In this document: piece after piece, positions 10,901 through 56,693 of the stretch
Layout of the letters: each line of letters begins with the position of its first letter
Position numbering within the stretch: the stretch's first letter is position 1
Assembly: GCF_902652985.1 (NCBI RefSeq)
Contig: NC_047028.1
Coordinates: 19,344,001 to 19,408,000 of the forward strand
From: Pecten maximus
Lineage: Eukaryota
Direction: 5' to 3'
Length of the DNA stretch: 64,000 nt
The notes under the pieces: generated by a model
Told to the model about the DNA's origin: nothing
What the model saw: only the letters and a program-made list of their open reading frames with translations
Database searches by the model: none
Program-made: the position numbers and the translations under genes

Positions 10901-13900
10901 TGTCATTATAAAGTCAGTAAATATAATGTCCCAGTAAAGTCAGTGAATATAATGTCCCTGTAAAGTCAGTGAATATAATGTCCCTGTAAAGTCAGTAAAT
11001 ATAATGTCCCTGTAAAGTCAGTAAATATAATGTCCGTGTAAAGACAGTGAATATAATGTCCCCGTAAAGTCAGTAAATATAATGTCCCTGTGAAGTCAGT
11101 AAATATAATGTCCCAATAAAGTCAGTAAATATAATGTCCCGGTAAAGTCAGTAAATATAATGTCCCAGTAAAGCCAGTAAATATAATGTCCCAGTAAAGT
11201 CAGTAAATGTAATGTCCCTATCAAGTCAGTAAATATAATGTCCCGGTAAAGTCAGTGAATATAATGTCCCTGTAAAGTCAGTAAATATAATGTCAAAGTA
11301 AAGTCAGTGAATATAATGTCTTAGGAATGGGAGTAAATATAGTGTCCCTATCAAGTCAGTAAATATAATGTCGCTGTAAAGTCAGTAAATATAATGTCCC
11401 AGTAAAGTCAGTAAATATAATGTCCAAGTAAAGACAGTAAATATAATGTCCCTGTCAAGTCAGTGAATATAGTGTCCCTGTAAAGTCAGTAAATATAATG
11501 TCCCAGTTAAGTCAGTAAATATAATGTCCCAGCAAAGTCAGTAAATATAAAGTCCCTGTAAAATCAGTAAATATAATGTCCCAGTAAAGTCAGTAAATAT
11601 AATGTCCCTGTAAAGTCAGTTAATATAATGTCCCTATCAAGTCATTAAATATAATGTCCCTAAAAAGACAGTAAATATAATGTCGCTATCAAGTCAGTAA
11701 ATATAATGTCCCTAAAAAGACAGTAAATATAATGTCCCTATAAAGTCAGTAAATATAATGTCCCAGTAAAGTCAGTAAATATAATGTCCCTGTAAAGTCA
11801 GTAAATATAATGTCCCTATAAAGTCAGTAAATATAATGTCCCTAAAAAGACAGTAAATATAATGTCGCTATCAAGTCAGTAAATATAATGTCCCTAAAAA
11901 GACAGTAAATATAATGTCGCTATCAAGTCAGTAAATGTAATGTCCGTAAAAAGACAGTAAATATAACGTCCCTATCAAGTCAGTAAATATAATGTCCCAG
12001 TAAAGTCAGTGAATATAATGTCCCAGTAAAGTCAGTAAATATAATGTCCCAGTAAAGTCAGTGAATATAATGTCCTTGTAAAGTCAGTAAATATAATGTC
12101 CCTGTAAAGTCATTAAATATAATGTCCCAGTTAAGTCAGTAAATATAATGTCCCAGTAAAGTCAGTAAATATAATGTCCCTGTAAAGTCAGTAAATATAA
12201 TGTCCCAGTTAAGTCAGTAAATATAATGTCCCAGTAAAGTCAGTAAATATAATGTCCCTGTAAAGTCAGTGAATATAATGTCCCAGTAAAGTCAGTAAAT
12301 ATAATGTCCCAGTAAAGTCAGTAAATATAATGTCCCAGTAAAGTCAGTAAATATAATGTCCCAGTAAAGTCAGTGAATATAATGTCCTTGTAAAGTCAGT
12401 AAATATAATGTCCCTATCAAGTCAGTGAATATAATGTCCCAGTAAAGTCAGTAAATATAATGTCCCTGTAAAGTCAGTAAATATAATGTCCCTGTGAAGA
12501 CAGTAAATATAATGTCCCGGTTAAGTCAGTAAATATATTGTCCCTGTAAAGTCACTAAATATAATGTCCCTGTAAAGACAGTAAAAATAATGTCCATGTA
12601 AAGTCAGTAAATATAATGTCCCTGTAAAGTCACTTAATATAATGTCCCTGTAAAGTCAGTAAATATAATGTCCCAGTAAAGTCAGTAAATATAATGTCCC
12701 AGTAAAGTCAGTAAATATAAGGTCCCTGTAAAGTCAGTAAATATAGTGTCCCTGTAAAATCAGTAAATATAATGTCCCGGTAAAGTCAGTAAATATAATG
12801 TCCCTGTAAAGTCATTAAATATAATGTCCCAGTTAAGTCAGTCAATATAATGTCCCAGTAAAGTCAGTAAATATAATGTCCCAGTTAAGTCAGTCAATAT
12901 AATGTCCCTGTAAAGTCAGTAAATATAGTGTCCCTGTAAAATCAGTAAATATAATGTCCCGGTAAAGTCAGTAAATATAATGTCCCAGTTAAGTCAGTCA
13001 ATATAATGTCCCAGTAAAGTCAGTAAATATAATGTCCCAGTAAAGTCAGTAAATATAATGTCCCAGTAAAGTCAGTAAATATAATGTCCCTGTAAAGTCA
13101 GTAAATATAATGTCCCTGTAAAGACAGTAAATATAATGTCCCAGTAAAGTCAGTAAATATAATGTCCATATAAAGTCAGTAAATATAATGTCCTTGTAAA
13201 GTCAGTCAATATAATGTCCTTGTAAAGTTAGTCAATATAATGTCCCTGTAAAGTCAGTAAATATAATGTCCCTGTAAAGTCAGTAAATATAATGTCCCAG
13301 TAAAGACAGTAAATATAAGGTCCATGTAAAGTCAGTAAATATAATGTCCCAGTAAAGTCAGTAAATATAATGTCCCAATAAAGTCAGTAAATATAATGTC
13401 CCTGTAAAGTTAGTGAATATAATGTCCCAGTAAAGTCAGTAAATATAGTGTCCCTGTAAAGTCATTAAATATAATGTCCCAGTAAAGTCAGTAAATATAA
13501 TGTCCCTGTAAAGTCAGTAAATATAATGTCCCTATCAAGTCAGTAAATATAATGTCCCTATAAAGACAGTAAATATAATATCACTGTAAAGACAGTAAAT
13601 ATAATGTCCCAGTAAAGTCAGTAAATATATTGTCCCTGTAAAGTCAGTAAATATAATGTCCCAGTAAACTCAGTAAATATAATGTCCCTATAAAGTCAGT
13701 AAATATAATGTCCATGTAAAGACAGTAAATATAGTGTCCCAGTAAAGTCAGTAAATATAATGTCCCAGTAAAGTCAGTAAATATAATGTCCCAGTAAAGT
13801 CAGTAAATATAATGTCCCTGTAAAGTCAGTAAATATAATGTCCCAGTAAAGTCAGTAAATATAATGTCCCAGCAAAGACAGTAAATATAATGTCCCTGTA

Positions 13901-14023
13901 AAGTCAGTAAATATAATGTCCCTATAAAGTCAGTAAATATAATGTCCCTATAAAGTCAGTAAATATAATGTCCCGTTTAAGTCATTAAATATAATGTCAT
14001 TATAAAGTCAGTAAACATAATGT
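7906..14023. repeat. 26-bp tandem satellite, ~235 copies, consensus GTCAGTAAATATAATGTCCC(A/T)GTAAA
   Basis: Directly visible period; ORFs inside it repeat every 26 aa (3 units). Confidence 0.98.
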
Positions 14024-14273: not shown

Positions 14274-15182
14274 ATGTTGAATACCAAAGTACCGCATTTT
14301 GCCTTAAAAGAAAAGGCTAAACTTTTTAAACGGTTGATGTTGGCTTTCCTGTTCGTCTACCTCCTGGAAGGTCTGGCGTCTCTGAGCATTGGGATATGGC
14401 TAATTGTGCGACTTCGTGTGGTGATAGACTGTTTCGTTAACTATCAGATCCATGTCGCGAGTGTCTTGGTCCTGGTCTCTGGAGTGCTTAACATTTGTGT
14501 ATGTTCATTAGGGGCGCTGTCCTCCTCCAAAGCGAAGAACACACCTACTCTACGACCATTTGCCATCTTTTTTGTGCTCCTGATAGCACTGGAGTTGTCT
14601 GCCGCCATTGTGTCAACGGTTGATAAACATAAACTCGATGACAAGACTTTCCGTAATAGTATGACTTCGACTCATTGGCTTATCAGCAACGAAAAGGAGG
14701 AAGACGATCAGAAAGAACGACTGGAATGCTGGACAGAAATGCAGAAAGAGTTCAGATGTTGCGGGATAGACGGTTATCGTGATTGGATAAGCGACTCGTC
14801 AGATACATATAATTTCTCAGAAACAATATCAACGACAGCATTAGATAGCTGTAAGTGCGAGTCGGATTGGCGACGTAAGGAACGGAAATGTATCGATGTC
14901 AATGTGACGCTTGCAACTGATGTAAGATCCTACAGTTTGTTTGTGAGTCCGTGCTATGACACTTTGTACAATGCTATCAACACCCACACGACATTGTTGA
15001 AATGGTACTGTCCAATTCTTGCTATCGTTCAAATTGTTTCATTCAGCTTTATTTTCGGGTTAATCTCAAAAATCCAGAAAGCCAATGCTATAGCAATTTA
15101 CGGAGTAGATAACAAGAATAACACAACCGAGTCTGAACCTCCAAACTTCTCTGTCACGGATGATAGACGCAACAGTACCTAA
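14274..15182 (+). CDS. Tetraspanin-family protein (~302 aa), single coding exon
   Basis: Four hydrophobic segments (RLMLAFLFVYLL...; VASVLVLVSGVLNICVCSLGAL; FAIFFVLLIALELSAAIV; ILAIVQIVSFSFIFGLI), large loop with the signature FRCCG..GYRDW, DSCKC and PC; first in-frame ATG at 14274; splice acceptor tctatttgcag ends at 14211. Confidence 0.9.
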   Translation: MLNTKVPHFALKEKAKLFKRLMLAFLFVYLLEGLASLSIGIWLIVRLRVVIDCFVNYQIHVASVLVLVSGVLNICVCSLGALSSSKAKNTPTLRPFAIFFVLLIALELSAAIVSTVDKHKLDDKTFRNSMTSTHWLISNEKEEDDQKERLECWTEMQKEFRCCGIDGYRDWISDSSDTYNFSETISTTALDSCKCESDWRRKERKCIDVNVTLATDVRSYSLFVSPCYDTLYNAINTHTTLLKWYCPILAIVQIVSFSFIFGLISKIQKANAIAIYGVDNKNNTTESEPPNFSVTDDRRNST

Positions 15183-15578
15183 ACACGTGATACTCATGCC
15201 TGTCTGAACCTCCAATCATCTTCTCTGTCACGGATGATAGACGGAACAGTACCTAAACACGTGGTACCAATGCCTCTCTGAACCTCCAATCATCTTCTCT
15301 GTCACGAATGATAGACTGAACAGTACCTAAACACGTGATACCAATGTCTGTCTGAACCTCCAATCATCTTCTCTGTCACGGATGATAGACGGAACAGTAC
15401 CTAAACACGTGATACCAATGCCTGTCTGAACATCCAATCATCTTCTCTGTCACGGATGATAGACGGAACAGTACCTAAACACGTGATACCAATGCCTGTC
15501 TGAACATCCAATCATCTTCTCTGTCACGGATGATAGACGGAACAGTACCTAAACACGTGATACCCATACCTGTCTGAA
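15132..15578 (+). repeat. 74-bp tandem repeat, ~6 copies, spanning the tetraspanin stop codon
   Basis: tctgaac unit starts at 15132, 15203, 15277, 15351, 15425, 15499; the first copy is 71 bp and encodes the C-terminus SEPPNFSVTDDRRNST*. Confidence 0.95.
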
Positions 15579-21705: not shown

Positions 21706-24150
21706 ATGGAAAACAAATGTGGATATTGCAACAAGAAAACTCTAAGTCTCCGGCGGTGTTCGGCATGTCAGGACGTGTACTACTGCTCCACCGTATGTCA
21801 GCGTGAAGATTGGAGAGGTCAGCACAAGGTCAAGTGTAAAGAGATTCAAAAATGGAATGAAACCGAAAGCGCAAAACAAACTCCTGACGACATCCCATTT
21901 GCTCCAACAAATGAAAATGGAACCGGAACTGTTTTATACCCATCCGAACCAGCACATGGGATTCCGCATGAACAGTTTATGGACTTTATGAGACAGGATA
22001 AAGATACTTTCCATTTTTTGCATGATAGAGTAACCGGCCGTTTTCATACTTTTAAGGCCGATACCAGAGAACACAGAAATGAGGACGACAAAGATGGTAC
22101 TCGATACAAAACATGTTCCGTATGTGGTAAAACGAACGCTTCCGTAAAAACCTGTGGTCGGTGCAAGAAGGTAGATTATTGTTCCAAAGAGTGTCAAAAG
22201 AAAGATAGAAAATCACACAAACTTCAATGTAAAGAAACGAAAGAGGAGGTCTTTGATACTATAACAACAGATGGTTATCGCCGAGAAGCGAACGCATTCG
22301 CATCAGCGAAGTCAACGAGCACACACGATGACGCTTCTCATTTCTTCCATCCTATGCCAGGAGCACCAGACCTATCACGACGGTCCTTCGCTACACCAGG
22401 TGCGCTTCACAAAGCCAAGAGTCTGGCCTGGAAGGCCTTTCCTGGCTGTACTATCTTGGACTTTGTCCGGGAGATCCCACCCGAGCTGTTCGGGATGAGG
22501 CCACGTGGTACCTCCAGAGTTGCTGTTGGGTTTATATCGCGGTTTCATCAATATATGATGCGACACTGCATTTTCCTACAGGTAAGGTTGATGCGATATA
22601 GCTGTCTCGTTACATGAGTTTCTGCCCGCAGAATGCTAAGAAGTCGAAAATTTGCAAAATTGAGATGTTTTATTGACATGGTGAATTCTTTCCCTAAGAA
22701 GGTATTGATTTTGATCAAACTTATTAGGTCACGTGGTTTAACAAATCACCATAGAGACCATGCAAATGTTTTGAGAGGCGTAACGTCCGTCGGGGACAAA
22801 CCATTAAGACATTACATTGAAATGTTTGATATCTCAATATCATACCAATGTACAAATATAGGTCACTAACTGCGAAATGTACATACATGTTTGTCATTTA
22901 ATTAACATATATGATATATGATATAGATAATTACATATTGTTGTTATTATTCATGTTAACTTCGTTCCTGAGGCAGAAGTCGAGATTCTCTTTCAATGAA
23001 TTTGATGGAAATAACAATCTGTAACATCTGATTCACTTTATAATGACGGGTTAAATATATATTAAATGTTAAAATCCAACTGATTAGCATTCATTGTATT
23101 AGTTTAGTGACTCGACGTTTGGTTTGGTTTATTTAGTTTAACGTCCTATTAACAGCTAAGGTCATTTAAGGACGGCCTCCCGTGCGTGCGACATGTATGT
23201 GTGTGGTGAGTGCGTATGTGTGTTTTGGGAGGCTGCGGTATGTTCGTGTTAAAGTCTCCTTGTGATAGGCCGGAACTTTTGCCGATTTAAAGTGCTACCT
23301 CACTGAAGCATACTGTCGAAGACACCCAGCAGCACACCCCACCCGGTCACATTATACTGACAACGGGAAAACCAGTCGTCCCACTCCATATATGCTGAGC
23401 GCTAAGCAGGAGTAGCAACTACCATTTTTAAAGACTCTGGTATGTCTCGGCTAGGGGACAGAACCCAAAGCCTTCCTCACAGGGGCAAACGCTCAACTAA
23501 AGGCCAAAAGTGAGGCAGTGACAAGGGAGACGTTAGGAAGAAGAAAGTTGTTAAGAAAGAAGAGAAAAGATAAGATCCCAAATTTAGTCGCCTCTTACGA
23601 TCATGCAATGGGGGCAGCAGGTACAATTCTTACGCCCTACCTGCAGGGCAGTGACTCGACGTTTTGCCCGGTAATCAACAATATAGCCAAATATAACAAC
23701 CAGTTCAGATAACTGAGGAAAAATAGGAAATAACTTGATTTGTCGAGAATGTAAACATAAATCTAGTATAACATTCTGAGAAAGTGATTCAACACGGATT
23801 TTATCTAGAAACGGAAGACGCTTTCCTCCCGGAACACCCTTATCCTTGTACCTTTCGGAATTCTTAGGTGTTTACATTATCGATAACATTTCTTTTCCTT
23901 TTACCTACCTTTGCATATTGTTCTCATTTAATAAACGCAAAACGTATTTCGTTACAGGACAAAGATGGCGATGAGGTATATGTAGGGTTTTACCTGGAGC
24001 GTGACGATCCTCGACCCTACTTCTGGTGGGAATGACGTAGTTCCGGGAAGATACATATGTATAGAAGATCCTTACATCCACCCGTTCATAGACGGCTCTG
24101 TTGGAATCCGAGTAGACGACCCTGCCGCCGTTCGGGTGTTCTCGGTTTAA
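21706..24150 (+). pseudogene. Double-MYND family copy 1; exons 21706-22581 and 23958-24150; +1 frameshift in exon 2 (pseudogene or base-call error)
   Basis: MYND motifs CGYC..CSAC..YYCSTVCQREDW..HK..C and CSVC..CGRC..YCSKECQ..D...HK..C; donor CAG/GTAAGG at 22581, acceptor gttacag at 23957; TGGGAATGAC versus TGGGATGAC in paralogs gives TGA at 24033-24035; ancestral stop TAA at 24148-24150. Confidence 0.85.
23121..23649 (-). mobile_element. Full-length SINE in the intron of copy 1, degenerate tRNA-like segment plus 5' extension
   Basis: 15-bp TSD agtgactcgacgttt (23106-23120 and 23650-23664); AAACC/AAAT-type tail; degenerate B-box-like GGTTCTGTCCC; diverged related copy at ~41800-42080. Confidence 0.85.
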
Positions 24151-26696: not shown

Positions 26697-27599
26697 AATA
26701 AACAAATAAATGGAAACGAATAATAATGAAAAAAAATGTTCTTTTTTTTTAAATCGAAAGTAGACTTTTAAAATCTGAGTATTCGCAGAACAATACAATC
26801 GATAGATAAATATCCCACGTGATTGAGATACACTCACTAGACTATCGGACACTGTCGATACAGAAACAGATTTATGTAGATAGTGGTGCTATTTGATAGA
26901 TGTTTCTGGTGTACCGAGAACAACGCGATGGCATTTCGACCAGGAAGTCTCCACCTGTTCTATACATACTGGTGAGTATACCATATAGTATGTTGTTAGC
27001 AACCGCCAGACCGGCAGACATTTTTCCTGGTACGTGTCCCCACACAGACCGGCACACAAGGACATTGATAGATTTGATGATTATGTGGGGCGTATTTGTG
27101 TGTTGGATCATCGCCATATATATAACCTTATACTCAAGTATATGAGACGAAGAATAACAGTGGATGGAGTCATGTAGGCGGTAATCCAGTTACCAATTAA
27201 CTAATACAACCTGATAGTCTATAGGCAGTTAAACATTAAAATGATAGTAGTAACCACTTCTTCACCACTTCCTCGTTTTTTGGTATCACGGTAATTGTTC
27301 GGTAGGAGAGGCACACATGCACTAACGGTGTGTGGTTGGAGGATATGCGATGTATTTTGTTTACGAGTATATATTTTAATGTATGCAAGATTTCCTTTTG
27401 AGTTAATTTTTTACTAGAATGACAATTTCACCTTTCATTTCTCACATTCCATTCAATGAATGATTTGACGACTCTGTTTTCTTAAATATTTTACTTACTT
27501 TACTACAGGAGACTGTTGACACACAAAGTTAAGAAAAAAATTAAAAATCCAGCGACTTGGTCGTCGTCCCCTGGTATATCATGTAGTGTTGGATCAGAT

Positions 27600-30388: not shown

Positions 30389-32817
30389 ATGGAGAAAAAA
30401 TGTGGATATTGCGGTAGGAACACTTTGAGTCTCCGGCGGTGTTCGTCATGTCAGGACGTTTACTACTGCTCCACTGTGTGTCAGCATGAGGATTGGAGAG
30501 GTCAACACAAGGTCAGATGTAAAGAGATTCAAAAACGTAAAGAAACCGGAAGTAGAAATTCACATGAGGACGCCTCTCTTCTTCCGAAAAAGGAAAATGG
30601 AAACGGAACTGTTCTATATCCACCTATCGGGGCCTCTAATGAAGAGTTCGTGGAATATTTCGACCGGGAAGGAATGAGCTTTCTTACTTTGACAGATATG
30701 TTATCGGGCAGTGTCGATGCTTATAAGGAGGATCCAGTGGATCAGAATACTAAAAGAAAAAGAGATAACACTATAAACAAGACATGTTACGTATGCGGCG
30801 AAACAAGTGCCGTAGTGAAAACTTGTGCTCGGTGCAAGATGGTAAATTATTGTTCCCAAGACTGCCAAAAGAAAGATAGGAAAAGACACAAAATACAATG
30901 TAAAGAACCAAAAGAGCAATGTCCTGATACTAACACAACAATGGATGGTTCTGCTTTTTTTCGTTCCATGCCAAAGATGCCAGATCTTTCCATTCAGTCC
31001 TACTCTGAACCAGGTGCGCTTGCAAAAGCCAAGAGTCTGGCCTGGAGGGCCTTTCCCGACTGTACTGTATTGGACTTCATCCGGGAGATCCCACCCGAGC
31101 TGTTCGGAATGAGACCACGTGGTACTTCGAGAGTTGCTGTCGGTTTTATATCACGGTTTCATCGAAATATGATGCGACATTGCATATTTCTACAGGTATA
31201 ATATCAGTAATTATTTAAAATTATGTTACGGTGCGGTAGTTAACGATCCACCATGAGGTCATGAGGTCAAATCTCAATCGGGATCGAGTGCGCATATTTT
31301 GCGAGGTGCATCGTCATCCGGAGACAAGTCCTAAAGACATTTCACGGAAGCGTTAAAGATAGCAATCTTATAATAACACTTTCTAGGTCACAAAGCAACA
31401 GCGACACAGACGTAAATTGAGAAAATAATCTACCCCGCAAGATGAATATTTCAAAATACTGATATGCATGAGAAATCGCTTCTAGCCCCGTCATAACCAC
31501 CCATACTGCCACGCCGCCGTGCACGAGTTCCCATTTCTGTTTCAAACCTATTGCAGCGTAATCTAGAACATTTATCCATCTAACTATTTCTACGAATTTA
31601 TTAAACGGGCATATGCTTAAATTCTGTAGTGCTTTCCTATGAAAAAAAATAAGTAACGGAATTTCCTTACCTTAACAATCATTTATTTTGGCGAGCAAAA
31701 AATGAAAAATTCAAAACGGGTATCATCAATCTATTATGAAGAGAAACGAATGACATATTCTATTTATCTTATGAATGGTATCTACTTTCATTTCTTCCCT
31801 TTTTGTTTGTTCAGACAGGTGATCGATCAATTTGTACGAGCCGTTTTGGACCGCATCAATAAAAACTAAGAGTCGGTCAAGTGCCGAAAAAATAGGGCGA
31901 GTAAATAACGAACTCCTTCAAAAATTTACTTTATAATAAAAAGAGCATTTTAATTAATTTCAATTTCAATTTTATAGAAAACAAGAACCACGGAGCGATA
32001 ACACGAGCGACCGCTTATGTTGTGTCATCACAGTTTGACAGGCGAAAACGCATTCCTCAGTAGTTATCAAATATCGCTGTCAGAGGGGGCCATCGGACAG
32101 AGTTTTATAACCGCTACATATTAACATGATTTAGTGTCACTAAGTTAGGAGAGTTGAGAGATGTTTCTACCAAAGATTATGTTTAAAGTGCCATAAAAGG
32201 TCATATTTGTAGCCGAATTATGAGTTTTTTTGATATTCATTTATTTTTTTGAAAAGGGTATCTTTTGATAGACTTGAAATTTAAAAAGGGTTCTAAACGT
32301 ACATGGATGATTTTCTTTATTTCCCGTAGTTAACCTTCCAATTTCAAACTGCGTTTTTTTTTTCTTTCAGTTGATTCACAACATCAACAGTATTTAATTT
32401 TAAAGTAAAAAATTGGGGTTCGGAAATACACCATATGACTGCAATGCTATTAATCAAGTCCAGCGACATATAAAAAAAGATTTTGTTTTGTAGGAAATGT
32501 TTATAGCAATTTTCGGAGAGCAGTCAGCCTCATCTGTTGATGGATTTAAACTACAGATTCTTCTTTTATTATTATTTGCAATATTGTAGTCATTTTACCA
32601 AGGATAAAGTGTTTTTTTGTTGCAGGACAAAGACGGCGATGAGGTATATGTTGCCTTTTACCTTGAACGTGACGATCCTCGACCCTACTTCCGGTGGGAT
32701 GACGTAGTTCCGGGACGATACATATGTATAGAAGATCCTTACATCCATCCGTTTATGGACGGCTCTGTTGGAATCCGGGTAGATTTCCCTTCCGCTGTTC
32801 GGGTGTTCGCGGTTTGA
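30389..32817 (+). CDS. Double-MYND zinc-finger protein copy 2 (~332 aa); exons 30389-31195 and 32626-32817
   Basis: Two MYND motifs; donor CAG/GTATAA at 31195, acceptor ttgttgcag at 32625; phase-0 join ...HCIFLQ|DKDGDEVYVAFY...RVFAV*; open throughout. Confidence 0.92.
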
Positions 32818-37651: not shown

Positions 37652-38822
37652 ATGGCAGATGTTTGTGGATACTGCGGCCTTAAAGCATTGGGTCTACCCC
37701 AGTGTTCGGGGTGTAAACACATACACTACTGTTCTAATGAGTGTCAACGAAAAGACTGGAAAGGTCAGCATAGGGTCAAATGTAAAGAGATACAGCGTCA
37801 AGTACAAAAGGAAAACAACACACCAATGACGCGGAAACAGCCAATACTGAAGAAAGACAATGGCTACAGAGCAAACGCACTTACTCAAAACATTCATCAA
37901 CGACAAGGTGGAAATAAAGAAACCGGAAGACGAAATTGCCGGAAGTGTGTCGAATGTGGCAAAATAATATCAACTACGCAGAAATGCAGTCGTTGTAAGA
38001 AAATTGATTACTGTTCAAACACGTGTCTAAGTAAAAATTGGAGTGAACACAAGTTGTATTGTACTTCTCCAGAGGAGGAAAACTACGTTACCATCACAAC
38101 GGATGGATTCCGGCGAGAGGAAGCCTTTGCATCGAGGGTATGCAGACGAGTCGGATTTCAACAGGCGGAGAGTCTAAGTCGGAGGACGTTTGAGAGATCA
38201 ACTCCCATGTACTTTATCCAAGATATACCGCGATGTATGGGCTGGATACGGAGAAAGCGTGCATCTGGGGTTTTTGTTGGTTTTATATCAAGAATGCACA
38301 AGCGAATATCCAAATCCATATACTTGCAGGTAATTAATATATCAATTTACATTTAACATAATTATACATTTTCATTAGCGCCCGTTCTTTATAAAAAAGT
38401 AAAAACAACAAGCGGAAATATTCTAAATTGAATAACAATAATCCATATCGATGGTTTGTTTGTTTGGGTTTAACGGCCCATCGACAGCTAGGGTCATTTA
38501 GGGCCGATCAAAACAGTGGTTTTTATTTTATTCTATTTGAGTTTAAAATCATAATATCGATGGAATTTCGAGTAAATTCGTTTTTAGCTAATATTGATAG
38601 GGAAAAAAACGTTACAAAAAGATGCTTTTTTTTCTACAGGATGAAACTGGAGACGAAGTACAGGTGATATTTGCTCTTGAGAGAGGGGTCAAACAGTCTA
38701 ACTTCCGGTGGGATGACGTAGTTCCGGGTCGGTACCTGTGTATTAAGGATCCATCCATTGACCATTTCTCTGGATTGATGCTAGTAAGCGATGCTTCCAC
38801 AGTTCGCGTTTTCCGTGTTTAG
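37652..38822 (+). CDS. Double-MYND zinc-finger protein copy 3 (~286 aa); exons 37652-38329 and 38640-38822
   Basis: CGYC..CSGC..YCSNECQRKDW..H...C and CVEC..CSRC..YCSNTC...NW..HK..C; donor CAG/GTAATT at 38329, acceptor tttctacag at 38639; join SIYLQ|DETGDEVQVIF. Confidence 0.9.
38452..38505 (-). mobile_element. SINE 3' tail fragment in the intron of copy 3
   Basis: ggtttgtttgtttgggtttaacggcccatcgacagctagggtcatttagggc resembles 23121-23176. Confidence 0.6.
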
Positions 38823-43176: not shown

Positions 43177-44522
43177 AATGCCTATATTTACGTTCATAAA
43201 TATTTTTTTTATTTACTGTTAGTTAAGACGCGTTTAAATTTGCCGCTTACCTTATCGCTGACGTCATCAGGTTCAAATAATGGAACAGCCGAAATTTCCA
43301 GAAGCAATAATATAATCCCCCATGTTGTTATTAATAGCAAACACATAAAATGGTTTTTGCACAAATTTGGATATCGTCAAATATTTCACAATTGCATAAT
43401 TTCTTATTGTTTAAAATCAAAGCCGTTTTACGGGTATTACACAGGACAGACTCGAATCCTCGGAGACACTTATTTTTTTTCTATTGACTGGATTTATGTT
43501 AATTTCAGAAGAATATCAGCTGTTCAATTCTTAATGAAAATCGGCTTGACTGTAGGTAAAATGATTTCATGGATACTTAGCAGACGATGGTCAGCTTCAC
43601 AGGGGCTCGATTTGTAAGGTAAGCCTTTGATATCAGTAAATAACCACAAAACTAAAATCCAGTATACATACACAATCGGAAACATACCGATACTCTCGAT
43701 TTTTTACAAGATTTTTTTTATTAATACTGGACTTTTACTGCTGTCGTGTCTTGCATTTCTGAAAATTCGGAAACGAGCCCCTGTTAGTGTGACGACTATT
43801 TGATAATTTCGTAAAGATCAAGAATGGCGCTTATAATAAGTTTGAGTTGACTCCATTTTTTTAACCATAAAATATTACTCTCATCACCTGGGATTTTGGT
43901 TTATTTTTTGTGGTAGCTTATGTAAATAAATGCTAGCACTCGAAAGCTCTCTAGGCCGAACGTACCTGGCGGCGATTGTTTTAACCTGCAACACATAGAG
44001 CTGTACTGTCTTCCTACACTGACCAAATCATTGTAAATTGTAGTATACAGTCTCATGAATACAATTTGGATTACTAACAACATACAGACAAATGCAACAC
44101 AGAACGTAAATACACTGTATATTGTTATATAATTGGTAATAATAGACGTTTACAAGAAAAACGTAGACGGTATTGTTAAATATCTTAATTAAGCGGTACA
44201 TATATATACATGTACATTGTATATACAAATATACATATACATAAGCTACATCTACCTGTTGCTGTGCTTGATTACATGTTATCTTTACTCTGTTCGATTT
44301 TAATTGTCTTACATTTTCACTTGGTAACCACGGTATTCCAATAATACATTACTTTATAACATCGTCTGGACAGCGACGAGTTTAATACAACAACCAAATT
44401 ATACCGGAAGCACTAGGCGGCGCTGCTCAGGAAGTTGGATTTTTATTATAATGATTTGATATACATGTATATAATTTTGTATTGCATTTGTTTGAAAGAA
44501 AAAAAAAAAAAAAAATAGCGAT

Positions 44523-45361
44523 TGTAGGCGTCGAGTACGCCTCGAAATCGCTCTGGCTATCGTAAATAAATGAGGTCAATTCCATCTTCCTGGCTTCATC
44601 TGTGTTTATTATCTTTGACATCAACTACATACAAGTATAGTACAGGTGTATTGACTCAGTGATAGTTCTACGTAGATAGATTGACTGTAACGAAAAGAAA
44701 CAGTACTTATTAGACTAATTAACTAAGCAACAGTTACTATTATGCCTTATCATCTATAACACATGACGAGTTTGATCTGTAGATGAGATCGAGACAACTC
44801 GCCCTCTACTATTCAGTATACAATACACATGACTTGACAAGACTAGGACGTTTCGGCCCAGAATGAATTTAACCGAACCTGATAAATATAGCAAAATACA
44901 ATACTATTACGATACTATTACTCTTACACATTTATAGCGAGTTAAACAGAAATGAAACAGCAATGTATCAATCATATCATAGCATACAAATACAGCAGAA
45001 ATCAAGTGATAGACTAGAATGCACGAGGGACTTGTCGTCTGTCCACGGTTCACTGACATATTTATATATTGGCCAAATTATCCAAAATGACATTATAACA
45101 TGATGACATGGATTCCTAAACAAGCATAAATCATATTCAAATCATTCAACAGTAATTAGTTACCGTATCGTATCCTACGATAGTCCGAACGAATCTTCTC
45201 ATACTCAAAACATGTGCTGCGCTTGGATAACGCTATCCCATAATATTCGTCTATACTAAAACCGGAAACCGGATAACCGTATTTTCCGGAATCTTAACAA
45301 AATTACCACAAATGAAACTAAACAATAAATTCAACATAAAACTAACATTTAGGCCGTAACA
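44523..45361 (-). repeat. 3' LTR of the BEL/Pao element
   Basis: tgtaggcgtcgag...ggccgtaaca, near-identical to 51555-52393. Confidence 0.97.
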
Positions 45362-45536
45362 TACCGGCCCCTTAATCGAGGCTTCAACCGAGATTATCAA
45401 TTCGCAAAAACGGCCTAATAACCATCAAACACATCAATTAAATCATTATGCTTAATCATAAAATAATTACAATTACAAAAGTACATATGATATTTTAGTT
45501 CGAATTGTCCTTTCACTCAAGCGTTCACCGTATCCA

Positions 45537-48500
45537 TTACTCAATGTCTGACTCGAGCAAGAGCACGAGTTTTGACACTGGACGCGTTAACACATTGGAA
45601 GGGGTCTTAACTTTCACGAATCGCACTAAGTCATGTTTGTCTTTCACAACTTCCTGAATCCTACCGGTTATCCACGCATGCCTAGGTGTACTATCAGCGA
45701 TCAGCACAAGATCTCCAGTCTGCATATTGCGTCGTTTCTTCATCCATTTCTGGCGGCCTTGCAGAAGCGGCAAGTATTCCTTGGTCCACCTATTTCAGAA
45801 AATATCTGAAAGGTATTGTATCTGTCTCCACCTCCTTCTGGCATAGTTATCCGTGGCGACGAATGTTGCAGGTGGGAAATACTCTCCAGGCTGAAGTAAT
45901 AGCAGATGGTTTGGGGTCAAAACCCGTAGGTCAGTTACGTTATCCGATGCTTCAGTTAACGGGCGTCCATTTAAGATAGCCTCTACCTCACAAAAGAGTG
46001 TCTGAAGTCCTTCGTCATCCAGTTTCGCATTCTGCTCATGCATAACAGAGTACAACACCTGTCTCACAGACCTAATGAGTCTTTCCCAGACTCCGCCGAA
46101 GTGAGAACCGGAGGGAGGATTGAATTCCCACTGAATGCTAATCTGCAACATGTTATCACGAATTTTGTCTGTGTTCCATTTCTGAATATTTTCCTTCATT
46201 TCTCGTTGAGCACCGACAAGGTTGGTTCCGTTATCCGATCTAATAAATACAGGTTTTCCTCTGCGAGCGATAAATCGTCGAATGGAGTTGATGCAAGAAT
46301 CTGTATCGAGCGACGCAGCAACTTCTAAATGGACCGCACGAGTCACAAGACAGGTAAACAATACCCCATATCGCTTTACCACACTCCTTCCACGTTTCAG
46401 TTCAAAGGGTCCGAAGAAATCCATCCCAGTTCTGCTGAAAGGAGGCTGATCAGCTGCGAGTCGCTCTGCGGGTAAGTTTGCCATCTTTTGCTCAACACAT
46501 GGAGCTCTGTATTTCCTACAAGTCACACATTTGGAAAGAATAGATTTCACCAGAGTGCGAGCACCAACAATCCAATATTTTTCTCGAATGAATGCAAGAA
46601 CAGTGTTCTTTCCTAAGTGACCACATGATCTGTGGGCATCATCCACAACGAGTCTCGATACGACAGATTCCCTAGGCAACACCACTGGGTGTTTTGCATC
46701 ATACGAAATTTCAGCTCTTTCAAGACGACCTCCTACGCGAATGACACCATCTTTAACAAAGGGGGCCATCTTGAATAATTTCGAAGTCTTTTTGAGTTTT
46801 CGCGACTGAACACCATTGTCCTGGTGAAGGATCTTGCTTTCGGCTGCGAAGTACTTTCGTTGCTCATACTTAATCAACGCGGCTTCAGCTCGTTCCAGAA
46901 TATCCACAGACAGGCACGCTGTACGAAGGTTTTTCTGTCCTTTGAGAAGTCTATCCTGTCTCTCTTTCGACAATGCTAACTTTATTTTCTGGTCGCGTTT
47001 CACAGGATCAGATTCTGAACTGCTGATGTCCTGTTTTATCTGCCGGCTCCTCTCAACAGCTCCCTGCAGGTTGTCCATAGCTCTCATAAGCCATCCAGTA
47101 GCTCTCCTAAGCTTATTAAAGTTGGAGTAATAGTCGAAAAGATTTTCGACACCACTGTTTGTGTCTAAAACAACTGATGTAGCGCACGCAGTCGTCCTTA
47201 TTTCAGGATCATTCTCTTTATCCGTGATCTTAACATCCTTTTCCACAACGGGCCATTCACGTTCGGATTTCCAGAGGAACATTGGTCCACGAGTCCACAG
47301 GTCAGGCAACTTCGAAATGCTCGTTCCTCTTGATGCAACATCAGCTGGATTCTCCTTAGTGTTGATGTAATACCAGTCATCTTCCGACGTAGCTTCGTGG
47401 ATAAGAGCAATGCGGTTAGCTACGAACGTGTGGAAGCGCAAATTCTTGTTTGCGATATACCTTAAGACTGAAGTGCTGTCAGTCCAAAAGAAGAATCGAT
47501 CTATGTTGTAATTCAGCTGTTTTGTCACCATCCTGACCAACTTCACTAGAGAAGAGGCAGCTGTAAGTTCCATCCGGGGTATAGTCACTGCCTTCAGTGG
47601 TGCGACTCTCGCCTTCCCGAACAAGAACGAGCAGTGGATCTTTCCAGTGACATCAACGAGTCGAAGATAGAATACCATTCCATATCCAATGTCACTTGCA
47701 TCTGCGAAACCATGAAGTTGACAGGAGGTTACCTTGCCGAGGTTTTTCCCTTTGTAACACCGATCAATGGTAACATGCTCTAGTTCAGGTAGCTGAAGCA
47801 GCCAATCGGTCCAGTCCTTCAGATCTTTTCCTGTGATCTCCTCATCCCATCCCTTACCATCCCTACAAAGTCTTTGCAGAATTGACTTGGCCTTAAGAAC
47901 AAACGGGGATGCAATTCCTAAAGGATCGTACACTGAGCTGGTTACTGATAGAATACCTCTTCTAGTAACGGGCTTGTCTTTCATCTGAATTTGGAATCCA
48001 AGGGAGTCATTCTCCATGAACCAATAAACTCTGAGAGCTCTTTCGATAGGTGGCTTACTATCCAGACTCCACAACTTGACTTCTTGGGCACGATCACCCT
48101 CTGGAATAGATTCCACAACCACATCACTGTTACTCGTCCATTTGGTAAGTCGGAATCCTCCGGATTTACACATTTGAGTCACATCATGTATAAGACTAAT
48201 CGCCTTCTTCTCTGTAGCAACGGAGGTCAGACAATCATCGACATACATATTTCTTTTCAGTGTGTCCTGAACTTCTTGGGGAAACCGTTTTTGACTGTCC
48301 TCTGCAGTTTTCTGAAGAGCAAAGTTGCAAACACTGGGAGATGATGAGGCTCCAAACAGGTGAACCGTCATCCTGTAGCTCCTTGGCTCATTCGCAGTAT
48401 TCCCGTTGGGCCACCAGTAAAATCGCAGATAGTCTCTTTCATTTACTGGGACCTTCACCTGATAGAACATCGCTTCAATGTCTCCAATGACAGCCACTGG

Positions 48501-51482
48501 TCCCTCCCGGAATCGCATCAACACACCAAGAAGATTGTTTGTAAGGTCAGGTCCCTGGAGTAAGTTGTCGTTAAGGGAGACACCTTGATATCGCGCAGAG
48601 CAATCAAACACAACTCGAATCTTGTTCTTTTTCTTGTGGTATACACCATGATGAGGAATGTACCAGACCTTTCCTTTGTCAAATCCCACAGGTGCTGGTT
48701 CCGCATGACCTTTCTCCAACAGTGTTTCCATGAAGGTAGTGTAATCTTCTTTGAACTTGGTATCTGCCTTGAACCTGTTCTCAATGCTGCGTAATCTCCG
48801 TTTAGCTATTACCGAGTTATCAGGCAAAATAGTGACCTTGTTACGAAATGGCAACGAAACGCAGTAATGTTCTCCATCCTTATAAATAGAGTTTTCAGCC
48901 ATATCCAAAAATTGTTTGTCCTCCCTCGAGTTTTCTTTTCTATCGTCAATAAGACGCTCAGGGAAATCCATGTTCATAGATCTCTTAACCATGTCTTCGA
49001 TGTCTTCTCCAGACTCATCCTGAATGTGAACTCTGTTGACACCTATAGTACCACTTTCTCGAAGAACATTCCAGACCACCCATCCGAGCTTAGTTCTTGT
49101 GGCATGTGGTGATCCACTAGGGCCTGCAAGTATCTCAATAGGCGAGTAGGCATCTGGTACGTTGCTGCCAATCATCAAACCTATCTCACAGTTAGGCTCA
49201 GCTAGTGAAACCTTTGCTAAGTGTTCCCACCTTGACACCTCTGCTTGTGTTGGGATGTGCTTCTTAGACACGGGCATTTTCTCCTTCGTGAACACTCGCG
49301 GAAGATCAATAGCATTTTCCGAGTCAATGTCACTTACTTGCAGTCCACTGATGGAAAATGTGTTCATGATAAATGGCTCACCCATTGTACTCAGTGTAAG
49401 CTGTGTCTTCTTACCTCTAGCTCCAAGCTGTTTCATAACTGTCTCGGTGCAAAACGAAGCACTACTACCTGTATCCAAGAATGCGTATGTCTCTATACTA
49501 TGAGGTTTATCACGCAAGCGAATTCTAACTGGGACTATCGCCATGGCACAAGACACATCCCCCTTTTGATCTTCTTTTGCGATAGCATAACCAGTACTGG
49601 CATTCGATACACTAACAACTGACGAGCTTTCTTCGTTGTGTAAGATAGATGGATGACATTTTTTGCATATGCCGCACTTGGAACGATTACGGCATCTCTT
49701 CGACAAGTGGCCTTTCTTGAGACAGCCAAAGCATAATCCCTTTTCTTTAATGAAGTTGACTCTTTCGTTCATAGGTTTGGCAGTTATCTTTTTGCAAGAA
49801 TCCAGAGAATGGGAAGTAGAGTCACAGAAGAAACACTTATAATTCGGGCCTGGAGGAGGTACAGTCTCACTGGTGCTCTCAGGTATAGAATCTGTAACAA
49901 TCTCTGGAACTGCATTGCTGGAACGTGCAATCTTTGTCTGAGTCTTTGGTCTTGAAGTCCCAGTGGCATTACTTCCATACGTAGGGTCGTTGACTTTCTT
50001 AGCCTCTGCCTTCACAAACTTCATCAAGTCTTGGAACCGAACCTTCCTCTTCGCTTCCTTGTACTTGTATACTTGGTTCCTCCATTTATCATGCAGATAG
50101 AAGGGTAGTTTGAGCATTAATTTCTTAATATTGTCCGAGTAGTCAAGAACGCCATTTGATTTTGTGCCAACTGCATTATCACAATCTACAAGAAACAAAG
50201 AGAAGTCATCGAGTGCCTTCGGGTCTCCAGGACGAATGGTGGGCCAGTCTAATGCTTTCTTGATGAAAGCTGTCGCTATAACTTCCTCATCGCCATAGCG
50301 ATCCTCCAGCTGACTCATGGCTGCCTTATAAGCCTTGTCGCCGTTAAGATGGCTGAATCCTGACACCACTTTATGTGCATCTCCGAATGTAAGTTGTTCA
50401 AGGTAGTTCATCCTTTCATCGTCATCATCAGTGTTGATTACAACCTTCGAGTGAAATTGACGAATAAATCTGCGATATTCTAGAGGATCTCCACTAAACT
50501 TCTTTACCTCTGCCACAGGTTTTCTTAAATGTTGAACTACCGACTGAACTACGGTTTGTGAATGGGACGAATCAACATATTGTTCAGGTAGTGTTCTCGA
50601 TGACACTTCTGCTACACCAGTCATATGTGGTCTAGGTCTATCATATAGGACTGGAGGGGGACTTGCACAAACACTTTCATCTGTAAATCGTACAGGCAAT
50701 GGTCGCGGCTTAGGGGAGGTAAATCGCGGTTGCTCGAACGCAAGAGCCTGGTCAACTGAATCATTAAGATTTTCATTTGAGTCGTACTTGTCGAGTACTC
50801 CGCTTCTCGCTTGAGCGACAGCTATACCGGTATCAAGTTCCAGCTCTTCCTCTTTGAGCTTTAGCGACAACTTAGCTAACTCAATTTCATGTTTCTTTGA
50901 TAACGCTAGTTTCCTTGTCTCTAATTCTACCCTAACCTGTTCTTCTTTGATACGTTTCAGAGACGCGTATGAACTGGCAGTACTGGAAACGGATACATTA
51001 TCATCGGCTTCTGGATCAGTTTTCTTTACAATGCCTTGGTCTATTTTCTCGCCAGCCACACTCAACTCTTCGGCTACAGATAAAGTGTTCTTACTCAATG
51101 TCATAGCACTCCGCGAAGAAATGTAGTTCTCAATCCAACTTTTGAATTGTTTCGCAGAACCATAATTCTCATTGAACCTTTGAATAAGCTCATCATGCTC
51201 ATGGGAAGAGACTTGGGGCAGCAAAATGTCATACAGTTCCAAATATTTTTCGAACTCACTCATCCACATACTGTATTTTTTACGCACAATATCCAAAGGT
51301 TCGTCATCTTCAGTGGCTATTTCTTTTAAATATCTCTCTGACCTACATAGAGACTTGTATTTTTTGTCAAGTTGTTCCATATTGTACTGCATGCCTTTCT
51401 CACTAAATTTTCTGGCCCGTCCAGAATCTGAATTTAAGTCATACATGTAACCTTCTACAGCTTCACTGTCTCTAGTAGCCAT
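45537..51482 (-). CDS. BEL/Pao gag-pol polyprotein with one in-frame nonsense codon at 45795-45797
   Basis: Three Cys/His knuckles (CFFCDSTSHSLDSC, CFGCLKKGHLSKRC, CGICKKCHPSILH), protease FLDTGS, RT YVDD, RNase H HGFADAS/WTDS/NPADVASRG, integrase H..H/CVTC, DFFGP, SDNGTN, GVWERLI; first ATG at 51482; frame continues DIF*NRWTKEYLPLLQGRQKW to 45537. Confidence 0.95.
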
Positions 51483-51554
51483 CTTGTTCCAGATCTGTAT
51501 CACTTAAAAGCTTGAAGATCATACCTCTTACATCTGGGATGATACGTCAATGAA

Positions 51555-52393
51555 TGTAGGCGTCGAGTACGCCTCGAAATCGCTCTGGCTATCGTAAATA
51601 AATGAGGTCAATTCCATCTTCCTGGCTTCATCTGTGTTTATTATCTTTGACATCAACTACATACAAGTATAGTACAGGTGTATTGACTCAGTGATAGTTC
51701 TACGTAGGTAGATTGACTGTAGCGAAAAGAAACAGTACTTATTAGACTAATTAACTAAGCAACAGTTACTATTATGCCTTATCATCTATAACACATGACG
51801 AGTTTGATCTGTAGATGAGATCGAGACAACTCGCCCTCTACTATTCAGTATACAATACACATGACTTGACAAGACTAGGACGTTTCGGCCCAGAATGAAT
51901 TTAACCGAACCTGATAAATATAGCAAAATACAATACTATTACGATACTATTACTCTTACACATTTATAGCGAGTTAAACAAAAATGAAACAGCAATGTAT
52001 CAATCATATCATAGCATACAAATACAGCAGAAATCAAGTGATATACTAGAATGCACGAGGGACTTGTCGTCTGTCCACGGTTCACTGACATATTTATATA
52101 TTGGCCAAATTATCCAAAATGACATTATAACATGATGACATGGATTCCTAAACAAGCATAAATCATATTCAAATCATTCAACAGTAATTAGTTACCGTAT
52201 CGTATCCTACGATAGTCCGAACGAATCTTCTCATACTCAAAACATGTGCTGCGCTTGGATAACGCTATCCCATAATATTCGTCTATACTAAAACTGGAAA
52301 CCGGATAACCGTATTTTCCGGAATCTTAACAAAATTACCACAAATGAAACTAAACAATAAATTCAACATAAAACTAACATTTAGGCCGTAACA
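51555..52393 (-). repeat. 5' LTR of the BEL/Pao element
   Basis: 839-bp match to 44523-45361, five substitutions seen by eye. Confidence 0.97.
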
Positions 52394-54775: not shown

Positions 54776-56693
54776 ATGTCAGAGATCTGTGGATACTGCG
54801 GATTGCCTTGAATCTAAAACGGTGTTCAGGATGCAAAAAGGTTTACTACTGCTCTAGAGAGTGTCAACGAGAAGACTGGAAAGGTCAGCACAAAGCCAAA
54901 TGCAAAGAAGTCCAGAATCGTGTACACAAGGAAAACGCCGACTTACTGATGCAAAGCAACAGTCAACAATGAGGAAATCCGAAGGACACCGAACTGAAAA
55001 ACCTGATCAAAAAGGTGATCAACTCCAAGTTGACGACAAAAAATCCGGAACCTGGACACACGGGAAGTGTATTGAATGTGGAAAGAATGTTTATTTTACG
55101 CAGAAATGCAGTCGTTGTATGAAAATGAATTTCTGTTCCAGTAAATGTCTACGTCAGAATTGGAGAGGACATAAGCCGTATTGTGCTGCTGTCAAGGAGG
55201 AAGATTCCAAAATCAATACAACAGATGGACTACAACCACAGGGAGCCTTTGTATCAGGGGCTACAATAGATGAAGTACGACCACAGGAAGCCTTTGTATC
55301 GGGGACCACAACAGAAGATGTAGTACGACCACAGGAAGCCTTTGTATCGGGGACCACAACAGATGAAGTACGACCACAGGAAGCCTATGTATCGGGGACT
55401 ACAACAGATGAAGTACGACCACAGGAAGCCTTTGTATCGGGGACTACAACAGATGAGGTACGACCACAGGAAGCCTTTGTATCGGGGACTACAACAGATG
55501 TAGTACGACCACAGGAAGCCTTTGTATCGGGGACTACAACAGATGATGTAGTACGACCACAGGAAGCCTTTGTATCGGGGACCACAACAGATGAAGTACG
55601 ACCACAGGAAGCCTTTGTATCGAGGACTACAACAGATGAAGTACGACCACAGGAAGCCTTTGTATCGGGGACTACAACAGATGCAGTACGACCACAGGAA
55701 GCCTTTGTATCGGGGACCGCAACAGATGATGTAGTACGACCACAGGAAGCCTTTGTATCGGGGACTACAACAGATGAAGTACGACCACAGGAAGCCTTTG
55801 TATCGGGGACCACAACAGATGAAGTACGACCACAGGAAGCCTTTGTATCGGGGACTACAACAGATGAAGTACGACCACAGGGAGCCTTTGTATCGGGGAC
55901 TACAACAGAGGAAGTACGACCACAGGGAGCCTTTGTATCTGGGACCAGCAGACAAATCGGGTTTCAAAAGGCAAAGAAACAAAGTCGGGGTACTTTTGTT
56001 AATTCCACTCTGATACAATACATTCCACAGATCCGGCGCAATCTTTGCGGAATTCGAGAAACGTGTGCATCAACATATTTTGTTGGTATTATATCACGAA
56101 TCAATGAAGATTGCACAAAGTGCATTAACTTGCAGGTAACTGATCAATGGATTTTTTTTTATCTCAAAAATTATTTACCATAACTATGATTATACACTTA
56201 ATGGGTTTCTGTTTTATAACGTTAAAAAAGGCATAATTATTTAAAATCGACTACAGGTAATTGATATACATGTAAATGGTAAAGTAAGAGATTCTGATAA
56301 ATTACTAAAATTCAGATTAATGATTATGAGGTAAATGAAAATAAACTTAAGAAATATCTAGGCATCGAATTTATTTATTGTTATAATTATTAATATTTAC
56401 TATTTTGTTTATTCATTAATCATTTCTTTTATTATAATAAATGCTTGTTAAAGATAAATATAAGACACACAACATTTTTACAGGATGAAATTGGAAACGA
56501 AGTACAAGTGATGTTTGTTCTTGAGAGAGATGGCGGCAAGTTTCACTTCTGTTGGGATGACGTAGTTCCGGGTCGTTATCTGTGTATAAAAGATCCATTC
56601 ATCGACTACTCTGAAAGGCTGATGCTGGTAAATCAGGCTTCAAATGTTCGTATTTTGAGTGTTAAGCTGGATACTACAGGTAGATGCAATTAA
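54776..56693 (+). pseudogene. Double-MYND family copy 4; exons 54776-56135 and 56484-56693; two frameshifts in the 5' part
   Basis: ATG TCA GAG ATC TGT GGA TAC TGC GGA TTG CCT TGA; MYND1 continues in another frame from 54805 (ALNLKRCSGCKKVYYCSRECQREDWKGQHKAKC); a second shift near 54955 enters the long ORF with MYND2; donor CAG/GTAACT at 56135, acceptor tttttacag at 56483. Confidence 0.85.
55218..55946 (+). repeat. In-frame 45/48-bp coding repeat, ~16 copies of TTDEVRPQEAFVSGT
   Basis: Visible in the DNA and in ORF 54861-56183. Confidence 0.97.

What the first reader, a model, noticed from the sequence alone, without database searches (positions are those of the whole stretch)
31015..32817. 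Unannotated C-terminal domain with an OB-fold-like pattern and HxFxDGSxGIR motif
Spliced sequence VAVGFISRFH..MRHCIFLQDKDGDEVYVAFY...FRWDDVVPGRYICIEDPYIHPFMDGSVGIRVD..SAVRVF follows the OB-fold pattern (beta1; beta2-LxDxxG-beta3; connector; PGxxIxI beta4; beta5). It is the most conserved part of the family (WDDVVPGRY.CI.DP in all four copies, ignoring the copy 1 frameshift) and is split across exons, so the ORF track hides it. From unverified recall, a similar D..G..V.FY...G....H.F.DG..GIR domain occurs with MYND fingers in uncharacterised fungal proteins, which would imply a patchy distribution. Inference: a single-stranded nucleic-acid-binding module coupled to MYND protein-binding fingers.
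Basis: inference. Interest (0 to 1): 0.7.

Follow-up and report, generated by a model that had tools for sequence, protein, structure and literature searches.

The report
Unnamed OB-barrel domain on MYND proteins
A real, spliced scallop gene pairs two zinc fingers with an unnamed predicted OB-type barrel that recurs across molluscs and in fungi and protists, and this barrel likely grips single-stranded RNA or DNA so that partner proteins would be brought to it.

Summary
Observation confirmed. Exons 30389-31195 and 32626-32817 splice (4 RNA runs of one study) into a 332-aa protein with two MYND fingers and a ~125-aa tail that no Pfam family names. AlphaFold gives a confident OB barrel (pLDDT 96). 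Closest solved folds, tied: TTC5 OB (Z 10.1) and Teb1 OB-A (Z 9.9). A profile search gave 139 hits: MYND-OB across molluscs, OB-MYND in fungi, OB-TPR(-phosphatase) in euglenozoans, one OB-SET. R263, Y281, H310, F312, G318, R320 are 81-99% conserved and fall on the usual OB binding strands; most are lost together in copies 3-5 while the core stays. Corrections: the title motif is in only 2 of 4 window copies, and copy 1's frameshift is absent from RNA contigs of 4 of 4 runs. Nucleic-acid binding is inferred only; the domain is not basic overall. It is not a TTC5_OB member by Pfam score. The scan noted this same array once before (own window). Verdict: a new family within a known fold.

The parts
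26818..26956 (+). upstream non-coding exon of the gene (joined to about 30378 in RNA contigs)
   Evidence: runs X1 and X5
30389..31195 (+). first coding exon, 269 codons: MYND1, linker, MYND2, linker, first half of the OB domain
   Evidence: RNA contigs
30401..30520 (+). MYND finger 1 (residues 5-44)
   Evidence: Pfam PF01753, 2 stretches, E 3.1e-21 for the exon
30785..30901 (+). MYND finger 2 (about residues 133-171)
   Evidence: second PF01753 stretch; Cys/His pattern in the translation
31010..31195 (+). OB domain, residues 208-269: N-terminal helix, strand 1, loop 1-2 with R263, strand 2
   Evidence: model secondary structure; conservation
31196..32625 (+). phase-0 GT..AG intron, 1430 nt, splitting the domain
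   Evidence: joint in 4 RNA runs of one study
32626..32817 (+). last coding exon, residues 270-332: strand 3 with Y281, capping helix, strands 4 and 5
32746..32778 (+). HxFxDGxxGIR hairpin (H310-R320), the loop 4-5 region of the barrel
21706..24150 (+). tandem copy 1 (exons 21706-22581, 23958-24150); motif intact; one extra base near 24031 in the assembly, absent from RNA contigs
37652..38822 (+). tandem copy 3 (exons 37652-38329, 38640-38822); open frame, spliced in one RNA run; barrel core kept, face residues lost
54776..56693 (+). tandem copy 4 (exons 54776-56135, 56484-56693); frameshift near the start in the assembly, 15-residue repeat in the linker, face residues lost
   Evidence: not checked against RNA

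Best explanation
This is a real, spliced scallop gene whose last 125 residues form a predicted OB-fold barrel of a family with no Pfam model, and this barrel likely binds a short stretch of single-stranded RNA or DNA while the two MYND fingers would hold partner proteins. Shown: the gene, the splice, the tandem array, purifying selection and the family's spread. Predicted: the fold. Inferred: R263, Y281, H310, F312 and R320 form one site on the usual OB binding face (strands 2, 3, 5 and loop 4-5), with Y281 and F312 stacking on bases and the arginines holding phosphates. Inferred: the domain is a portable targeting module, used alone with protein-binding domains (MYND, TPR) or to aim an enzyme (SET methyltransferase, tyrosine-phosphatase-family domain). 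Inferred: copies 3-5 keep the barrel but have lost or changed this site.
For: Fold: pLDDT 96.4, pTM 0.89; a euglenozoan member folds the same way (pLDDT 93.7; profiles A3 and A1 match at probability 99.8). The top structural matches of both models are OB domains of nucleic-acid-binding proteins: TTC5, Teb1, MCM10, RPA, POT1, HIN. Over 150 domains from 143 proteins: R263 82%, Y281 84% (+10% H), H310 81%, F312 94%, D314 94%, G318 99%, R320 90%; 108 of 118 complete domains keep at least 6 of these 7. They sit at the start of strand 2, the end of strand 3 and the strand 4-5 hairpin. RPA uses two conserved aromatics per OB domain, F238 and F269 (PMC4937323, passages); that these lie at the end of strand 3 and in loop 4-5 is recalled. 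Copies 3 and 4 and P0043 keep 10 of 10 aligned core positions but lose R263, Y281 and H310; two gastropod-type internal domains show a similar loss: a site that is lost as a unit. dN/dS copy 1 vs 2 is 0.16 in both halves of the domain against 0.39-0.77 in linkers. Partners by Pfam: MYND 63, TPR with phosphatase 7, TPR alone 3, SET 1, of 87 hits scanned.
Against: No binding was measured, and a shared fold shows no function. Mean net charge of 91 full domains is -2.8 and the scallop domain is 0; only some segments are mildly basic (helix +1.6, strand 1-loop +1.3, hairpin +0.7). D314-G315 may be conserved just as a turn. Sequence identity to every solved match is 24% or less, and no solved structure matches by sequence. 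Both models draw on overlapping alignments, so they are not fully independent.
Confidence: 0.5

Rival explanations
1. The barrel binds a protein or peptide, not nucleic acid; the whole protein would be a protein-protein scaffold.
For: Net charge is neutral to acidic. Nearly all partner domains act on proteins: MYND, TPR, SET, phosphatase. Protein-binding OB domains are known (RPA70 N-terminal domain, TPP1; recalled).
Against: The best structural matches are mostly nucleic-acid-binding OB domains. The same Arg/Tyr/His/Phe set is kept from molluscs to fungi and euglenozoans, which suits a chemically constant ligand better than a drifting protein partner.
Confidence: 0.25
2. The conserved face is a pocket for a small ligand (nucleotide, phosphorylated or modified residue) or an active site; copies 3-5 would be pseudo-enzymes or non-sensing decoys.
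For: A small set of near-invariant polar residues (R, Y, H, D, R) on a non-basic domain, lost together in a subfamily. Many hits are short proteins with little besides the domain, though these may be fragments. Staphylococcal nuclease is a catalytic OB fold (recalled).
Against: No catalytic OB domain ranks among the top 50 matches of either model. H310 is replaced by R or K in about 13% of domains and Y281 by H in 10%, loose for catalysis. Only one acidic residue is conserved on that face, and it can be a turn residue.
Confidence: 0.2
3. The tail is not a functional domain, or the splice is a modelling artefact.
For: One RNA contig (X1) has a 50-nt skip that stops the frame after residue 66; the joint was seen in one study only.
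Against: X2, X3 and X4 carry the joint without the skip; dN/dS 0.16; 139 profile hits; confident fold.
Confidence: 0.02

Closest known systems
TTC5 (Strap) C-terminal OB domain, Pfam PF16669, PDB 2xvs / 8bpo
   Same: Best whole-domain structural match of the scallop model (Z 10.1, rmsd 2.8, 110 aligned, model 1-124 including the N-terminal helix) and top Foldseek hit of the euglenozoan model (E 8.5e-5, TM 0.63). First named family in the ESM look-up (0.81, under the 0.9 lead line). Weak Pfam hits in 2 of 24 distant members (best E 0.0015). Same DxxG to Tyr spacing and the same Arg in strand 5 in scallop TTC5, by eye. Both are an OB domain joined to a protein-binding module.
   Different: No member reaches the Pfam cut-off; 14-17% identity; profile against scallop TTC5 scores no better than against MCM10 (15.1-16.5 vs 14.4-14.6). 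TTC5 has TPRs before the OB and a longer strand 4-5 hairpin without the FxDG motif. The genome's own TTC5 lies on another contig.
ssDNA-binding OB domains: Tetrahymena Teb1 OB-A, RPA70 DBD-A/B, POT1, MCM10 internal domain
   Same: Z 9.9 (Teb1, rmsd 3.0, 102 aligned) and 8.9 (MCM10) for the scallop model, Z 10.1 (Teb1) for the euglenozoan model; conserved aromatics at matching strand positions (inferred).
   Different: Single domain fused to MYND, TPR, SET or phosphatase rather than tandem OB arrays; not basic; patchy spread with tandem duplication instead of a core replication role; no sequence match.
MYND-finger adaptor proteins and SMYD methyltransferases
   Same: Two PF01753 fingers. The family's partner domains MYND, TPR and SET are the three SMYD building blocks (composition recalled).
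   Different: No SET domain in this gene; no described MYND protein with an OB domain turned up in the paper searches.

Membership tests
OB-fold superfamily | five-stranded barrel with a capping segment between strands 3 and 4 | tested here: met
   Predicted model, pLDDT 96.4; 7 chains at Z 8 or more, all OB domains, best Z 10.1. A prediction, not a solved structure.
TTC5_OB (PF16669) | score over the Pfam cut-off of 30 bits | tested here: not met
   Scallop domain no hit; 1 of 60 members at E 0.012, 2 of 24 at best E 0.0015, P0101 13.3 bits.
TTC5_OB (PF16669) | OB domain behind a TPR array in a TTC5 orthologue | tested here: not met
   Architecture is MYND-MYND-OB; true TTC5 exons lie on contig C11.
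TTC5_OB (PF16669) | specific kinship beyond the shared fold | tested here: inconclusive
   First or tied, but rank 6 and rank 13; hhalign 15.1 (3 of 60 shuffles as high) and 16.5 (0 of 60), MCM10 control 14.4 and 14.6 (3 of 60 each).
TTC5_OB (PF16669) | binds the ribosome | not testable with these tools
   TTC5 binds the ribosome through its OB domain (PMC9541101, passage).
RPA/Teb1/POT1-type ssDNA-binding OB | conserved base-stacking aromatics on the binding face | tested here: inconclusive
   Y281 (84% Y, 10% H) and F312 (94%) at the end of strand 3 and in the 4-5 hairpin; exposure not checked on coordinates.
RPA/Teb1/POT1-type ssDNA-binding OB | basic binding surface | tested here: inconclusive
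   Whole domain mean -2.8; face-bordering segments +0.7 to +1.6; no surface map.
RPA/Teb1/POT1-type ssDNA-binding OB | binds single-stranded nucleic acid | not testable with these tools
   Needs a binding assay.
MCM10 OB (PF22379) | Pfam match and MCM10 context | tested here: not met
   0 of 60 members listed; the genome's MCM10 lies on contig C7.
zf-MYND (PF01753) | Pfam match over cut-off | tested here: met
   75.6 bits, cut-off 22.7, 2 stretches.
SMYD methyltransferases | SET domain | tested here: not met
   None in either coding exon; 1 of 87 scanned relatives has one.

The most novel reading that the evidence does not exclude
The domain is a sister of the TTC5 OB domain and serves as a portable ribosome/rRNA dock: molluscs, fungi and protists have fused it to MYND fingers, TPRs, a SET methyltransferase or a phosphatase to read or modify nascent chains or ribosomes, giving a large undescribed class of TTC5-like co-translational regulators, with site-less copies acting as decoys.
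Probability: 0.17. Interest if true: 0.8.

Novelty: new variant of a known kind. Interest (0 to 1): 0.47.

Why it matters
It names a eukaryotic OB-domain family that Pfam does not model and that five paper searches did not find described. It is kept across bivalves, gastropods and cephalopods with 1-7 MYND fingers and is reused with TPR, SET and phosphatase domains in other lineages. The scallop array supplies a natural pair for testing: copies with the conserved face (1, 2) and without it (3-5). If it docks on ribosomes like TTC5, it would widen co-translational control beyond tubulin. As it stands it is a new family in a very common fold, with no function shown.

Tried and rejected
Sequence searches of solved structures gave nothing below E 0.04. 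PHROGs 0 families; NCBIfam nothing meaningful. No relative confirmed in viral contigs (29 pattern matches, 0 confirmed) or prokaryote genomes (117, 0 confirmed), and no viral fold at E 0.001 or better; these find close relatives only, so absence is weak. A metagenome scan with the SET-type protein P0126 found none (212 matches, 0 confirmed), so the SET-linked branch stayed at two sequences. The profile test of TTC5 kinship did not separate TTC5 from MCM10 (one search had a wrongly cut exon and is discarded; P 0.016 only). Staphylococcal-nuclease-type catalytic OB folds were not among the top 50 rows, which does not exclude them. Four of the 139 hits were dropped before all counts: P0122 (bacterial Ig repeats) and P0074, P0103, P0105 (very long, short repeated matches; not inspected further). 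The tree is the quick search only, 99 rows by 127 columns, 44 of 96 inner branches open: no claim on origin or gene transfer is made. Runs X5, X8, X9 and X6 showed no joint for this gene, which is no evidence against it. The TTC5 cryo-EM paper (PMC6942541) was not held, and the recalled rRNA-contacting lysines of TTC5 were not found in print, so they are not used. The word search of earlier findings returned eight unrelated bacterial OB families. No complex prediction was run.

Full report
Gene. The region is a two-coding-exon gene on the + strand: 30389-31195 and 32626-32817, with a phase-0 GT..AG intron of 1430 nt. The spliced product has 332 residues and equals a database protein named Pecten maximus LOC117342620 isoform X2, 'uncharacterized'. 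RNA contigs carry the joint in X1 (1 of 4 runs) and in X2, X3, X4 (3 of 4), all one study. X1 also skips 50 nt upstream, which would stop the frame after residue 66; X2-X5 do not. Pfam finds two MYND fingers and nothing for the tail.

Array. The window holds four copies and a fifth lies just beyond it; two dispersed paralogues lie elsewhere in the genome (8 matches at 7 loci). Copies 1 and 2 and both dispersed genes carry the HxFxDG..G.R hairpin; copies 3, 4 and 5 do not. The extra base that breaks copy 1 is left out in contigs of 4 of 4 runs from 4 studies, so copy 1 is probably intact. Copy 1 against copy 2 gives dN/dS 0.16 in both halves of the domain, 0.15-0.19 in the fingers and 0.39-0.77 in the linkers. 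Among the motif-less copies, exon 2 gives 0.39 (3 vs 4), 0.50 (3 vs 5) and 1.43 (4 vs 5, only 12 differences). Copy 3 is spliced in one run, and P0043, a separate record of unknown source, has the same motif-less form, so this looks like a kept subfamily and not simple decay.

Family. A 7-sequence scallop profile against 1.84 billion representatives gave 139 hits at E 0.001 or better, 63 at 1e-10; four were dropped as spurious. Of 87 hits given to Pfam (the longer ones), 63 have MYND, 7 TPR plus tyrosine-phosphatase family, 3 TPR only, 1 SET, 1 bacterial Ig (dropped) and 12 nothing. A pattern count puts MYND before the domain in 62 and after it in 14 of 143 proteins; it misses some fingers. 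Of 30 hits looked up, 11 are molluscs (bivalves, gastropods, cephalopods), 2 basidiomycete fungi, 3 euglenozoans and 14 uninformative; Cyclocybe adds a third fungus. The ESM Atlas ranks unnamed fungal clusters first (0.91-0.94, no common Pfam). No non-mollusc animal was named among the 30, which does not show absence. The quick tree clusters the labels but leaves the backbone open.

Fold. With 60 aligned domains AlphaFold gives pLDDT 96.4 and pTM 0.89: an N-terminal helix, then strands at 41-50, 58-62, 68-73, 94-104, 110-114 and 120-123 of the 125-residue model (add 207 for protein numbering). Foldseek finds 21 chains at E 0.001 or better, led by Teb1 OB-A, archaeal RPA and TTC5. VIA-align ranks TTC5 OB (Z 10.1, rmsd 2.8, 110 aligned), Teb1 OB-A (9.9), MCM10 (8.9); differences under 1 are ties. 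The euglenozoan OB-TPR domain folds alike (pLDDT 93.7), with TTC5 first by Foldseek but rank 13 by VIA, where Teb1 leads. The OB fold is therefore well supported; the nearest family is not settled.

TTC5 link. Three kinds of hint point to TTC5: whole-domain superposition including the helix, ESM features (0.75 and 0.81) and weak Pfam hits in distant members. A direct profile test against scallop TTC5 exons was marginal and little better than an MCM10 control. TTC5 binds near the ribosome exit tunnel and triggers tubulin mRNA decay (PMC10501990, passages), through its OB domain (PMC9541101, passages). Passages of PMC10403363 and PMC11570694 added nothing on the OB domain. The gene is not TTC5: that lies on contig C11.

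Site. Over 150 domains the conserved non-core residues are R263 82%, Y281 84% (+10% H), H310 81%, F312 94%, D314 94%, G318 99%, R320 90%, in all three architecture classes. RPA relies on two conserved aromatics per domain (PMC4937323, passages); their match to Y281 and F312 rests on recalled positions. In copies 3 and 4 and P0043 the 10 aligned core positions are unchanged while R263, Y281 and H310 are replaced; the aligner trimmed their last strand, where G318 and R320 are replaced by eye and the hairpin is three residues shorter. Against generic nucleic-acid binding, the domain is slightly acidic (mean -2.8, n 91).

Mechanism. Most likely (0.5) the barrel binds a short single-stranded RNA or DNA element through this small Arg/aromatic site, and the MYND fingers, which bind proline-rich peptides (recalled), link it to partner proteins; in other lineages the same module would aim TPRs, a SET enzyme or a phosphatase. 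Rivals are a protein-binding barrel (0.25) and a small-ligand pocket or active site (0.2). The boldest open reading is a TTC5-like ribosome dock (0.17, inside the 0.5).

Novelty. Five searches of the held papers for MYND with OB fold and related terms listed no description of this domain (listings only; subscription papers are not searched), and a search on MYND in bivalves listed nothing on MYND. It is a new family within a well-known fold, not a new kind of system.

Noticed in passing
window 44520-52393 (-): BEL/Pao-type LTR retrotransposon between copies 3 and 4: terminal repeats of about 842 bp, 99.3% alike, and one long open frame 45798-51503 with Pao peptidase, reverse transcriptase and integrase-zinc matches. 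It sits in a segment duplicated at 87-94% upstream of copy 5, so it probably inserted after that duplication.
   Followed up: partly
window about 24028-24031: The base that frameshifts copy 1 is absent from RNA contigs of 4 of 4 runs; the database model of this copy (P0002, LOC117342621) is truncated there and is probably wrong.
   Followed up: yes
window 30573-30622: One RNA contig (X1) skips 50 nt with 3-nt microhomology and CT..AC ends, breaking the frame after the first finger; not seen in X2-X5. A deletion allele or an artefact.
   Followed up: partly
window 55217-55947: Copy 4 (and copy 5) has an in-frame array of about 45-nt units encoding a 15-residue repeat in the linker before the OB domain.
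   Followed up: no
window 7900-14023: About 6 kb satellite array with offsets in multiples of 26 bp, about 89% alike.
   Followed up: no
window 14274-15179 (+): Single-exon tetraspanin open frame (PF00335, E 1.5e-26), followed by a tandem repeat of about 74 bp at 15131-15578.
   Followed up: no
P0087, P0096, P0115, P0121, P0136, P0138, P0139: OB-TPR-tyrosine-phosphatase-family fusion proteins; one is from the euglenozoan Namystynia. An undescribed architecture worth its own look.
   Followed up: partly
P0014 and P0037 (internal domains): Gastropod-type proteins carry both intact and site-less OB domains in one chain, echoing scallop copies 3-5.
   Followed up: partly
window about 30960-31000 (residues 193-200): A proline-rich segment just before the OB domain recurs in scallop homologues; it could be an internal ligand for a MYND finger. 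Speculation.
   Followed up: no
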